This document shows positions 9,182 through 9,310 of a stretch of DNA of 63,692 nucleotides, piece by piece. The DNA is from Candidatus Woesearchaeota archaeon (GTDB lineage: Archaea; Nanobdellota; Nanobdellia; Woesearchaeales; ARS49). Each line of letters begins with the position of its first letter. Positions within the stretch are counted from its first letter, which is position 1. The stretch is from assembly GCA_038868995.1 (NCBI GenBank), contig JAWCRZ010000006.1, positions 1 through 63,692 of the forward strand, read 5' to 3'. The position numbers were made by a program, and so were the translations under genes. The notes beneath the pieces were generated by a model, which had not been told where the DNA came from, made no database searches, and saw only the letters and a list, made by a program, of their open reading frames with translations.

Positions 9182-9310
9182 TGCTGTCAACTTAATGATG
9201 CCGCGCTGGCTTTTGACTGACTTTTCTTCTCCCCTTGCAAGTGCGGGAAGAGAAAAGTCACCTCGACAACGTCGAGGCAGCGCGGCCAGCACCAGAGAGT
9301 TGACTTAACC
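9182..9310 (-). repeat. Structured intergenic repeat, copy 2
   Basis: 122/129 identical to 63465-63593 (manual alignment); nested inverted repeats. Confidence 0.93.

What the first reader, a model, noticed from the sequence alone, without database searches (positions are those of the whole stretch)
9182..9310. Dispersed ~130-bp branched palindromic element family, always 3' of GGTTAA
Seen: copies at 9182-9310 and 63465-63593 (7 differences in 129 nt) and a diverged copy at 3300-3413. On the minus strand copies 2 and 3 read GGTTAA-GTCAAC...GTTGAC and fold as an outer GTCAACT/AGTTGAC stem, TGGTGC/GCA(C/T)CA, GCGCTG/CAGCG, then two abutting hairpins. Three of the stem differences between copies 2 and 3 are G-T pairs on the minus strand but A-C mismatches on the plus strand, so selection appears to act on one folded single strand. 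All three copies follow GGTTAA. In two this is the Gly-stop of the upstream gene (galE-like ...KSG*, pyrG ...NKG*), and all lie just upstream of the next TATA box. No ORF, target duplication or cognate transposase is visible. Established: HUH (Y1) transposases of IS200/IS605 and RAYT/REPIN systems act on ssDNA hairpins, and IS200/IS605 insert 3' of a fixed short motif without duplication. Inference: a non-autonomous, target-specific ssDNA-mobilised element, or a 3'-UTR RNA motif, that may be undescribed in DPANN. The GTCAA/TTGAC outer stem recalls HEARO/omega-RNA 5' stems.
Basis: partly seen in the sequence, partly recalled or inferred. Interest (0 to 1): 0.85.

Follow-up and report, generated by a model that had tools for sequence, protein, structure and literature searches.

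The report
Promoter-targeting MITE family in small archaeon
A 130-bp non-coding mobile element, present about 85 times in a 0.94-Mb archaeal genome, has nearly always landed at the same spot just upstream of a gene's TATA-box promoter, which suggests a transposon that reads archaeal promoters.

Summary
The repeat is real and much larger than reported. A profile search finds 83 loci in the 940-kb genome, and 72 have both ends.

It is a MITE, not a duplication-free hairpin element:
- The ends are imperfect inverted repeats, T1 (GGTTAAGTCAA...) and T2 (GGTGCTGTCAA...).
- 65 of 72 copies carry an 8-10 bp (mostly 9) target duplication.
- Congeners have empty sites.
- GGTTAA is the element's own T1 tip. 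In 10 copies its TAA now ends the upstream ORF.

The striking result is the insertion register. A BRE/TATA promoter motif directly abuts the duplication, firing away from the element:
- 64 of 72 copies have this (56 at one exact offset), against 3.5% (0.75%) for random intergenic insertion.
- The T2 end faces the promoter about 3.5 times more often than T1, even though the interior is flipped between subfamilies.

The interior is an ~87-nt three-way hairpin with strong covariation. It also occurs without these ends in congeners.

No transposase was found: 9 Pfam families searched, and no multi-copy ORF. The T2 tip and the duplication length resemble IS1, which is only a lead.

No HUH enzyme, no Rfam match and no consistent strand asymmetry were found.

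The parts
9180..9310 (-). Subfamily A MITE copy, 131 bp. The T2 end (GATGCTGTCAAC) is at 9180 and the T1 end (GGTTAAGTCAAC on the minus strand) is at 9310.
   Evidence: Contigs of other copies diverge exactly at 9182 and 9310/9311. DNA fold z = -5.8.
9171..9179 (.). Left target-site duplication, CTTATTTTT.
   Evidence: Identical 9-mer at 9311-9319.
9311..9319 (.). Right target-site duplication, CTTATTTTT. On the minus strand it encodes the last three original codons of the CTP synthase gene.
9158..9170 (-). TATA box (9158-9166) plus a BRE-like block that abuts the duplication. This promoter fires away from the element towards the SecF-like ORF 8227-9123 (minus strand).
   Evidence: The orthologous TATA is present at the empty sites of congeners.
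9305..10759 (-). CTP synthase ORF. Its stop codon is now the TAA of the element's GGTTAA tip.
   Evidence: The original stop TAA directly follows the other duplication copy.
63463..63593 (-). Subfamily A MITE copy, 131 bp. T2 end at 63463, T1 end at 63593.
63454..63462 (.). Target-site duplication TTGAGAAAC. Its partner is at 63594-63602.
63594..63602 (.). Target-site duplication TTGAGAAAC, second copy.
63440..63453 (-). TATA box and spacer of the promoter on the T2 side. It lies about 25-30 nt upstream of the intron-containing tRNA gene at 63303-63415 (minus strand).
3305..3413 (+). Subfamily B copy. Its interior is flipped relative to A. The first 17 nt of T2 are missing. The T1 end is at 3413.
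   Evidence: I read the loss as a deletion between two TTAATGGTGC direct repeats, from the sequence.
3296..3304 (.). Target-site duplication TGATTTAAT. Its partner is at 3414-3422.
3414..3422 (.). Target-site duplication TGATTTAAT, second copy.
3281..3295 (-). TATA box (3281-3289) plus spacer. This is the promoter of the UDP-glucose dehydrogenase ORF 1986-3260 (minus strand); its ATG lies about 21-24 nt beyond the TATA box.
3408..4328 (-). NAD-dependent epimerase ORF that ends in the TAA of the element's T1 tip.

Best explanation
[quoted passage not shown] About 85 non-coding copies of 121-146 bp make up about 1% of a 0.94-Mb archaeal genome.

STRUCTURE. Each copy has two imperfect terminal inverted repeats of about 26 bp, T1 (GGTTAAGTCAAsTyTCTGGTGCTGGC) and T2 (GGTGCTGTCAACTTAATGGTGCTGGC). 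Between them lies a structure-conserved three-way hairpin core of about 87 nt.

MECHANISM. The copies were inserted by a transposase supplied in trans that makes 9-bp staggered cuts. I infer a DDE-type enzyme. The ends resemble those of IS1.

TARGET. Target choice is not random. The duplicated 9 bp end at the G that begins the BRE-like block, 5-6 nt from the TATA box, so the element sits at the upstream edge of a promoter that fires away from it. The T2 end preferentially faces the promoter. Because many intergenic spacers are tiny, the insertion often duplicates the last codons of the upstream gene, and the T1 tip then supplies Gly-stop.

SHOWN: the inverted repeats, the duplication, the empty sites, the copy number, the fixed register, the end-orientation bias and the covariation of the core.

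INFERRED: the enzyme class, and whether the promoter is recognised as a DNA sequence or bend, or through bound TBP/TFB.
For: FAMILY SIZE AND ENDS
- 83 loci in the genome; 72 have both ends.
- The 22-nt T2 end, with up to 3 mismatches, occurs 72 times in this genome and 0 times in the 14 congeners.
- A generic end pattern occurs 89 times here against 0-3 per congener.

TARGET DUPLICATION AND MOBILITY
- 65 of 72 copies have a duplication with at most 1 mismatch: 38 of 9 bp, 15 of 8 bp, 12 of 10 bp. None of 71 control comparisons reached 6 of 9.
- Empty orthologous sites: the 9180 copy is absent in G012, G005, G014, G010, G003, G001, G008 and G011. The 3305 copy is absent in G012, G014 and G010. 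Three further copies on contig 2 also have empty sites.

PROMOTER REGISTER
- A strict TATA 8-mer ends exactly 14 nt (30 copies) or 13 nt (9 copies) from the T2 end, of 72 copies. Chance is about 0.05 per position.
- A BRE/TATA weight matrix hits at offset 6-10 on at least one side in 64 of 72 copies, and at one exact offset in 56 of 72. Random intergenic insertion would give 3.5% and 0.75%.
- Among the 42 copies not used to train the matrix, 34 have a hit and 26 are at the exact offset.
- 20 copies with a promoter on the T2 side only have at least 30 nt of spare non-ORF DNA beyond T1. 17 of these 20 still sit at the exact offset.

THE MOTIFS ARE REAL PROMOTERS
- The ORF on the T2 side reads away from the element in 52 of 72 copies. 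The start codon is most often 44-45 nt from the element (13 copies).
- That spacing equals the genome-wide distance of 22-23 nt from TATA to start codon.

ORIENTATION OF THE ENDS
- Symmetric regex: promoter on the T2 side only in 35 copies, on the T1 side only in 9.
- Weight matrix: 41 against 12, p = 8e-5. Subfamily A gives 10 against 3 and B 31 against 9, although their cores are inverted relative to the ends.
- Two extra copies of a third family, with the same ends and a different interior, also have the promoter next to the TTAAT-type end.

IS1 LIKENESS
- The T2 tip matches the end of E. coli IS1A at 17 of about 20 positions with one 3-nt gap (my reading of the ends printed). Only 0.3% of shuffles reach the tool's alignment score.
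- IS1 has imperfect inverted repeats of about 30 bp and makes 8-9 bp duplications (passages of PMC12428005).
Against: - No autonomous partner was found. There is no match above cut-off for DDE_Tnp_IS1, DDE_Tnp_1, Transposase_mut, rve, IS240 or ISL3 in the own genome.
- There is no DDE_Tnp_IS1 match above cut-off in 77 genomes of the family, and no DDE_Tnp_IS1595 match in the genus.
- No ORF is present in more than one copy at 60% identity or more.
- The T2 end was not found in the viral, metagenome or genome collections. The tool warns that records close to this genome may be left out of those scans.
- The enzyme class is therefore an inference from the inverted repeats and the duplication.
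- Promoters are predicted from motifs and from a crude ORF caller of my own. There are no transcription start data.
- 8 of 72 copies have no detectable promoter at the fixed place.
- The weight matrix was trained on T2 flanks, so the 41 against 12 count may flatter T2. The regex count of 35 against 9 does not have this bias.
- Copies are 76-91% identical, so selection has had time to act since insertion.
Confidence: 0.8

Rival explanations
1. Survivorship only. The transposase inserts at random, or simply into AT-rich DNA. In a genome that is about 91% coding, only insertions just upstream of promoters are harmless, so only those remain.
For: - The genome is about 91% ORF by my caller, so intergenic spacers are short.
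- Insertions between the TATA box and the start codon would destroy leaderless promoters. This explains why only the upstream side of the TATA box is occupied.
- Copies are old enough (76-91% identity) for purging to have taken place.
Against: - 56 of 72 copies sit at one exact offset, against 0.75% expected for random intergenic positions.
- 17 of 20 copies with at least 30 nt (up to 564 nt) of free DNA on the far side still sit at the exact offset.
- Harmlessness does not explain the end-orientation bias of 35 against 9.
Confidence: 0.07
2. The element is mainly a host-selected structured RNA or DNA module, for example a bidirectional terminator, an insulator between genes, or a 3'-UTR stabiliser. 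Its position next to promoters reflects that function. The inverted repeats are only the vehicle.
For: - The core structure is strongly conserved in 22 sequences from 5 genomes: 94.1% of cells are paired, 18 of 30 pairs change on both sides, and 0 of 500 shuffles reach any of the five measures.
- Fully compensated hairpin variants recur among the 72 copies: CCTCGGC/GCCGAGG in 9, CCTCGAC/GTCGAGG in 9, CCTCAGC/GCTGAGG in 6.
- The long hairpin carries a run of 4-5 T on both strands. That oligo-T acts as an archaeal terminator signal is my own knowledge, not a tool result.
- Core-only copies in congeners sit 7-37 nt behind one ORF and 10-34 nt ahead of the next.
Against: - Both orientations occur relative to flanking genes (7 same, 8 opposite, 3 mixed, 2 undetermined, of 20).
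- There is no G-U against A-C strand asymmetry.
- There is no Rfam match.
- The orientation bias relative to the promoter follows the inverted-repeat ends and not the core, which is flipped between A and B.
- A third family with the same ends and a different interior shows the same placement.
- Empty sites in congeners show that the neighbouring genes work without the element.
Confidence: 0.1
3. One reading: an element mobilised as single-stranded DNA by an HUH (Y1) enzyme of the IS200/IS605 or REP/RAYT kind, which inserts 3' of GGTTAA without a duplication.
For: - The fold is hairpin-rich and conserved by covariation.
- In congeners the ~87-nt core is multi-copy (22 matches in G004, 31 in G007, 10 in G012). 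By eye it has no T1/T2 ends and no obvious duplication. This is REP-like.
Against: - In this genome the copies have inverted repeats and 8-10 bp duplications (65 of 72).
- GGTTAA lies inside the duplication.
- No Y1_Tnp match was found in 15 of 15 genomes of the genus, nor in the own genome.
- No OrfB_IS605 match was found in the own genome.
- No Rfam omega-RNA or HEARO match was found.
Confidence: 0.03

Closest known systems
Prokaryotic MITEs (for example Correia/NEMIS of Neisseria and the Sulfolobus SM MITEs)
   Same: - Short and non-coding, with terminal inverted repeats.
- Flanked by target-site duplications.
- Many dispersed intergenic copies, mobilised in trans, and specific to one lineage.
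- A census paper names a Woesearchaea genome, at 105 MITEs per Mb, among the three densest archaeal examples it lists (passage of PMC11602168). This genome has about 88-90 per Mb.
   Different: - Insertion is in a fixed register at the upstream edge of BRE/TATA promoters, with a bias in which end faces the promoter.
- The section on insertion-site preference in the MITE review PMC10969869 (passages) speaks of intergenic location only.
- The interior is a covarying three-way hairpin that also exists without the inverted repeats in congeners, and it is flipped between subfamilies.
IS1 family insertion sequences
   Same: - Imperfect inverted repeats of about 26-30 bp.
- 8-9 bp duplications (PMC12428005 passages).
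- The T2 tip resembles the IS1A end GGTGATGCTGCCAACTTACTGAT.
- IS1 ends and its main insertion hot spot both bind the DNA-bending protein IHF. I saw this only as titles in the reference list and as passages in PMC11043490. It is a possible parallel to TBP-bent promoters.
   Different: - No IS1 transposase domain was found in the own genome or in 77 genomes of the family.
- The IS1-family copy I examined in a genome of the same order (G117, L053) has unrelated inverted repeats; no clear terminal repeat stood out in the other (G044, L054).
- The likeness covers about 20 nt only, and I looked for it because of a recalled resemblance.
Ty3 and Dictyostelium TRE elements, which integrate at a fixed distance from TFIIIB-bound Pol III promoters (recalled, not read here)
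   Same: - Insertion at a fixed distance from the binding site of TBP and a TFB/Brf-type factor.
- The host gene is spared in a compact genome.
   Different: - Those are eukaryotic retroelements tethered by integrase-factor contacts. This is a DNA transposon in an archaeon.
- This element sits upstream of the BRE rather than at the transcription start.
- No protein contact has been shown here.
REP/BIME elements with RAYT, and IS200/IS605
   Same: Multi-copy intergenic palindromes whose structure is kept by compensatory change. The core-only copies in congeners look like this.
   Different: - The elements in this genome have inverted repeats and duplications.
- No Y1 or TnpB gene was found.

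Membership tests
MITE (non-autonomous transposon with inverted repeats and a target duplication) | Short and non-coding | tested here: met
   72 complete copies measure 121-146 bp. No ORF of 60 aa or more lies within one. Only 1 of 72 is spanned by an ORF from my caller.
MITE (non-autonomous transposon with inverted repeats and a target duplication) | Terminal inverted repeats | tested here: met
   T1 and T2 agree at 20 of 26 positions, by direct reading of the copies. Both ends were recognised in 72 of 83 loci.
MITE (non-autonomous transposon with inverted repeats and a target duplication) | Target-site duplication of fixed length | tested here: met
   65 of 72 copies have a duplication with at most 1 mismatch, most often 9 bp. 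None of 71 controls reached 6 of 9.
MITE (non-autonomous transposon with inverted repeats and a target duplication) | Dispersed multi-copy family with empty sites in relatives | tested here: met
   83 loci on all 20 contigs. Empty orthologous sites were found for 5 copies examined.
MITE (non-autonomous transposon with inverted repeats and a target duplication) | A cognate autonomous IS with the same inverted repeats | tested here: not met
   None in the assembly, and none in the public collections scanned. The assembly has 20 contigs and repeats may be unassembled.
IS1-family derivative | Inverted repeat resembling the IS1 ends | tested here: inconclusive
   The T2 tip against the E. coli IS1A end scores 9, against a shuffle mean of 2.4; 0.3% of 2000 shuffles reach that score. 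T1 does not match. The family signature GGnnnTG is recalled from memory and was not checked.
IS1-family derivative | 8-9 bp target duplication | tested here: met
   compared with the passage in PMC12428005.
IS1-family derivative | InsAB'-type transposase (DDE_Tnp_IS1) | tested here: not met
   0 of 1 in the own genome. 0 of 77 genomes of the family above cut-off.
IS200/IS605 or REP-RAYT (HUH, single-strand) | No target duplication and no terminal inverted repeats | tested here: not met
   Both a duplication and inverted repeats are present.
IS200/IS605 or REP-RAYT (HUH, single-strand) | Insertion 3' of a fixed short target motif | tested here: not met
   GGTTAA lies inside the duplication. The DNA outside T1 is variable (flank table).
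IS200/IS605 or REP-RAYT (HUH, single-strand) | Y1 transposase or TnpB present | tested here: not met
   Y1_Tnp: 0 of 15 genomes of the genus. OrfB_IS605: 0 in the own genome.
Described RNA family (Rfam 15, including HEARO/omega-RNA) | Match to a covariance model | tested here: not met
   No match at gathering score at any of the three copies. At E up to 1 there is only a chance miRNA hit, 17.3 bits against a gathering score of 91.
Integration directed by the pre-initiation complex (works like Ty3) | Fixed distance to the TBP/TFB binding site | tested here: met
   56 of 72 copies at one offset.
Integration directed by the pre-initiation complex (works like Ty3) | Physical contact between the transposase and TBP/TFB | not testable with these tools

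The most novel reading that the evidence does not exclude
The unknown transposase is tethered to, or guided by, the archaeal pre-initiation complex (TBP/TFB bound and bending BRE/TATA). It therefore integrates at the upstream edge of promoters in a set orientation. This would be the first archaeal, and the first prokaryotic DNA-transposon, counterpart of Ty3/TFIIIB-directed integration. The carried three-way hairpin might in addition shield the promoter from read-through transcription.
Probability: 0.25. Interest if true: 0.9.

Novelty: new variant of a known kind. Interest (0 to 1): 0.66.

Why it matters
MITEs are ordinary. A MITE family in which about 80-90% of copies sit in one fixed register against the BRE/TATA promoter element, with a bias in which end faces the promoter, is not ordinary.

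- I found no description of promoter-register insertion in archaea in five full-text searches.
- If the register is set at insertion, it shows how a transposon can multiply to about 1% of a genome that is about 91% coding without killing genes.
- It makes one question directly testable: do archaeal transposases read promoter DNA, its bend, or bound TBP/TFB? Eukaryotic retroelements solved the same problem with TFIIIB.
- The about 64 occupied sites also give a free, independent map of promoters in an uncultivated small-genome archaeon.
- For annotation, the finding explains the recurrent Gly-stop C-termini.

Tried and rejected
SEARCH FOR THE AUTONOMOUS PARTNER
- Solo ends and candidate long elements on contigs 11 and 2 held no transposase-like ORF.
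- Nine Pfam families were searched: PF03400, PF01609, PF00872, PF00665, PF01385, PF01797, PF13610 and PF01610 in the own genome, and PF12762 in the genus. Nothing exceeded its cut-off.
- PF03400 was found in 3 of 121 genomes of the order above cut-off. The copy I examined in G117 has unrelated inverted repeats, and no clear terminal repeat stood out in G044.
- An all-against-all comparison of ORFs found no multi-copy gene.

SCANS FOR THE ENDS IN PUBLIC COLLECTIONS
- The exact T2 22-mer gave 0 hits in the viral, metagenome and genome collections. The T1 pattern gave 0 hits in the viral collection.
- A degenerate end pattern gave 11 and 8 single hits in unrelated bacteria. None shows further similarity to the element, so they are chance hits.

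OTHER IDEAS TESTED
- The T2 end might itself be promoter-like (a 'pseudo-end' model). No weight-matrix hit above threshold lies inside any element, so I dropped it as evidence.
- RNAalifold on my own MAFFT alignments of all 72 copies, or of subfamily B alone, failed to recover the fold because of misaligned loops. I used the 22-sequence core alignment instead.
- A 1.4-kb two-ORF insert specific to this genome lies beside one copy. It has no Pfam family. The Atlas gave only an IS1634-transposase structural row below the bar (TM 0.38, on a model with pLDDT 0.47). I did not pursue it.
- The IS1A copy in E. coli K-12 shows no flanking duplication, so the 8-9 bp figure for IS1 rests on the paper passage.

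EXPRESSION
- No RNA holder was listed.
- Laying X1-X3 gave no RNA cover and no joints. It showed only the element boundaries and about 25-35 times the depth of the flanks.

TOOLS AND FILES NOT AVAILABLE
The supplementary tables of PMC11602168 may list MITEs of this or a related genome, and I could not see them.

UNPUBLISHED GENOME
- Tallies over the genus include G009, an unpublished genome. No claim here rests on G009 alone, and none of the empty sites I cite is from it.
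Full report
WHAT IS THERE

The two near-identical copies lie at window 9180-9310 and 63463-63593, with 94.6% identity over 129 nt, which is 7 differences. The diverged copy lies at 3305-3413. The single strand folds far better than shuffles (DNA parameters, -33.5 kcal/mol, z = -5.8, 0 of 200 shuffles as good).

The window belongs to a 940,371-bp genome in 20 contigs, rated 98.55% complete. It carries archaeal SRP RNA and archaeal RNase P RNA. This is a small-genome archaeon; I did not verify that it belongs to DPANN.

A profile built from 15 close copies finds 159 hits that merge into 83 loci on all 20 contigs. The 72 complete copies total 9,577 bp, or 1.0% of the genome. 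In the run that holds this DNA, contig depth over the element is about 25-35 times that of the flanks, and contigs of other copies diverge exactly at 9182 and 9310/9311.

ANATOMY

When the copies are aligned with their flanks, conservation stops at two ends:
- T1 reads GGTTAAGTCAA(G/C)T(T/C)TCTGGTGCTGGC.
- T2 reads GGTGCTGTCAACTTAATGGTGCTGGC.

They agree at 20 of 26 positions by direct reading, so they are imperfect terminal inverted repeats.

A short direct repeat of variable sequence lies directly outside them. With a caller that allows a shift of up to 2 nt, 65 of 72 copies have a repeat with at most one mismatch (38 of 9 bp, 15 of 8 bp, 12 of 10 bp). Seven do not. None of 71 control 9-mer comparisons exceeds 5 of 9 matches.

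The three window copies have perfect 9-bp duplications: CTTATTTTT, TTGAGAAAC and TGATTTAAT.

Subfamilies:
- A has 15 complete copies plus one cut by a contig end; mean pairwise identity is 91%.
- B and the rest have 57 copies; mean pairwise identity is 76%.
- The profile's best-strand orientation puts B's T2 end where A has T1, so the interior is inverted relative to the ends between A and B.
- A third family uses the same kind of ends with an unrelated interior. Two more copies of it, each with a 9-bp duplication, turned up in a scan for end pairs.
- Window copy 3 is a B copy. It has lost the first 17 nt of T2, apparently by a deletion between two TTAATGGTGC repeats.

MOBILITY

Orthologous loci in congeners lack the element.
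- For the 9180 copy, the flanking alignments in G012, G005 and G014 abut or overlap. In G010, G003, G001, G008 and G011 they leave only about 20-100 nt, against the 140-250 nt left unaligned in this genome. The aligned empty sites keep the same TATA box.
- The 3305 copy is absent in G012, G014 and G010.
- In a 20-kb stretch of contig 2, three more copies have empty sites in two or three congeners each.
- For two further copies in that stretch, synteny breaks at the element, so nothing can be said. One copy lies at the edge of a 1.4-kb insert specific to this genome.

The T2 22-mer, with up to 3 mismatches, occurs 72 times here and 0 times in the other 14 genomes of the genus. A generic end pattern occurs 89 times here against 0-3 in each congener. 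The burst is therefore specific to this lineage.

THE UNEXPECTED PART: WHERE THE COPIES SIT

The DNA outside the T2 end reads, towards the element, TTTATAAA-nnTTn-C followed by the rest of the 9-bp duplication.

Read in the other direction, this is a BRE-like block (G-nAA-nn) followed by a TATA box. It is a promoter that fires away from the element, and its BRE starts with the last duplicated base.

Counts with a strict, symmetric TATA regular expression:
- The 8-mer ends exactly 14 nt from T2 in 30 copies and 13 nt in 9 copies, of 72.
- On the T1 side it ends at 14 nt in 10 copies and at 13 nt in 4.
- The pattern occurs 0.74 times per kb per strand genome-wide.

Counts with an 18-nt weight matrix, using the top 0.1% of genome windows as threshold:
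- 52 of 72 T2 flanks have a hit at offset 6-10, 42 of them at one exact offset.
- 23 of 72 T1 flanks have a hit, 16 of them at that offset.
- 64 of 72 copies have a hit on at least one side; 8 have none.

For comparison, I took all 66,178 possible insertion positions in unoccupied non-ORF DNA. The same test is passed by 3.5% of them, and 0.75% at the exact offset, against 64 of 72 and 56 of 72 observed.

The matrix was trained on 30 of the T2 flanks, so I also counted the other 42 copies alone. Of these, 34 pass and 26 are at the exact offset.

The motifs behave as real promoters. The nearest ORF on the T2 side reads away from the element in 52 of 72 copies, and its start codon is most often 44-45 nt from the element (13 copies). 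That is 22-23 nt beyond the TATA box, which is the genome-wide mode for the distance from TATA to start codon (53 and 36 ORFs). This fits leaderless genes.

In the window, the features on the T2 side are a SecF-like gene, a UDP-glucose dehydrogenase gene and an intron-containing tRNA gene.

TARGETING OR SURVIVORSHIP?

The genome is about 91% ORF by my crude caller. Selection surely removes insertions in genes and those between the TATA box and the start codon. That explains why only the upstream side of the TATA box is occupied.

It does not explain the exact register. Of 41 copies with a promoter on the T2 side only, 20 have 31-564 nt of spare non-ORF DNA beyond the T1 end, and 17 of those 20 still sit at the exact offset.

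It also does not explain the bias in which end faces the promoter:
- T2 only 35 against T1 only 9, with 5 on both sides, by the symmetric regular expression.
- 41 against 12, p = 8e-5, by the matrix.
- The bias is the same in A (10 against 3) and in B (31 against 9), although their interiors are inverted relative to the ends.
- It holds in 2 of 2 extra copies of the third family.

The bias therefore follows the inverted-repeat ends, which are what a transposase binds, and not the cargo.

Occupied and unoccupied promoters have the same BRE/TATA logo. Occupied ones have more G at the base where the duplication ends (58% against 28%).

I conclude, at about 85%, that the register is set at insertion. 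Whether the enzyme reads the DNA sequence, the bend, or bound TBP/TFB cannot be decided here.

CONSEQUENCE FOR THE UPSTREAM GENES

The T1-side ORF reads towards the element in 34 of 72 copies. In 10 of these it ends at the TAA of GGTTAA.

For CTP synthase, the duplication is the last three codons (K-N-K). The original stop TAA, which overlaps the next gene's BRE, follows the other duplication copy. The insertion added one Gly and a new stop.

THE CARGO

In congeners, the inner ~87 nt occurs without T1 and T2. By eye I saw no duplication. A DNA search gives 22 matches in G004, 31 in G007, 2 in G011 and 10 in G012.

An alignment of 20 such copies plus the two window A cores gives a three-way fold:
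- 30 pairs, with 94.1% of cells paired.
- 18 pairs change on both sides.
- 0 of 500 shuffles reach the observed value on any of the five measures.
- Partners slid by 1-3 columns give only 5-9 such pairs.

The structure is thus kept by compensatory change. Within this genome, fully compensated variants of the short hairpin recur (9, 9 and 6 copies).

I found no sign that one strand is the selected one:
- The core-only copies lie between ORFs in both orientations (7 same, 8 opposite, 3 mixed, 2 undetermined, of 20).
- G-U against A-C counts are balanced.
- No Rfam family matches.

The core may be a REP-like palindrome with its own history that became the cargo of a MITE. Alternatively it may serve the host, for example as a two-way terminator. 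I rate a host function as the main explanation of the pattern at about 10%.

WHAT MOVES IT

Inverted repeats together with a 9-bp duplication point to a DDE-type transposase acting in trans. This is an inference. None was found in nine Pfam family searches, there is no multi-copy ORF, and the ends were not found in the viral, metagenome or genome collections (details under Tried and rejected).

The T2 tip resembles the end of E. coli IS1A. Reading the two ends printed, I count 17 matches over about 20 positions with one 3-nt gap; 0.3% of shuffles reach the tool's alignment score. IS1 has imperfect inverted repeats of about 30 bp and makes 8-9 bp duplications (passage of PMC12428005).

The ends of IS1 and its main hot spot both bind the bending protein IHF. 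I saw this in passages and reference titles of PMC11043490, not in the original papers. It is a suggestive parallel to TBP-bent promoters, no more. I put membership of the IS1 family at about 30%.

COMPARISON WITH WHAT IS KNOWN, AND NOVELTY

As an object, this is a MITE. Dense MITE loads in DPANN genomes have been counted before (passage of PMC11602168).

I did not find fixed-register insertion at archaeal promoters described in the listings and abstracts of five full-text searches, nor in the passages I read of two MITE papers.

The closest functional analogy is Ty3-type integration next to TFIIIB-bound promoters. I recall that from memory and did not read it here.

VERDICT

I file it as a new variant of a known kind, with interest 0.66.

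Noticed in passing
window 63303-63415 (-), 46318-46431 (-), 13940-14024 (+): Rfam's tRNA model finds six tRNA genes but ARAGORN finds only three. Two of the three missed matches span 113-114 nt, which suggests intron-containing tRNA genes. One of them lies right behind the promoter that MITE copy 2 abuts.
   Followed up: no
G000 contig 2: 7821-7963, 21652-21780, 38009-38134; contig 10: 29491-29615; contig 11: 9698-9838; contig 17: 5421-5561: A third MITE family has the same kind of ends (GGTGCAGTCAAGTTTTGTG... and ...CAAATTAAAT...) but a different interior. Two of its copies, found by an end-pair scan, have 9-bp duplications and a promoter at the exact offset.
   Followed up: partly
G000 contig 9: 3966-4147; contig 4: about 54912; contig 14: 13743-13925: Another repeated sequence, GAACCTTTCAATACAGCC, borders or ends several element-like copies that have three hairpins. 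It may be a further end type or a separate repeat family.
   Followed up: no
L122 4822-6025 (G000 contig 2: 24822-26025): A 1.4-kb insert is absent from the orthologous site in G005, G012 and G014. It carries two ORFs of 245 and 154 aa that look paralogous by eye and have no Pfam family. A MITE sits at its promoter. The Atlas structural rows to IS1634 transposases are below the bar (TM 0.38, model pLDDT 0.47).
   Followed up: partly
Congeners G004, G007, G011, G012 (loci L079-L107): The ~87-nt three-way hairpin core is multi-copy without the T1/T2 ends. G007 and G011 carry it at an orthologous site. It lies in tight spacers between ORFs, in both orientations.
   Followed up: partly
G000 contig 2: 7821-8115: Two elements of different families abut each other between two divergent promoters. 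Each has a promoter at the usual distance, which suggests successive hits on one divergent promoter pair.
   Followed up: no
G000 contig 3: 3480-3520 and 31917-31938; contig 2: 39136-39160: Solo T1 or T2 ends are followed by unrelated sequence. I read them as decayed or truncated copies, since no ORF follows.
   Followed up: partly
G000 contig 3: 1-92; contig 4: 77811-77908; contig 19: 11686-11772: Three contigs end inside a MITE copy. The repeat family is therefore one cause of the assembly breaks, and copy numbers are lower bounds.
   Followed up: no
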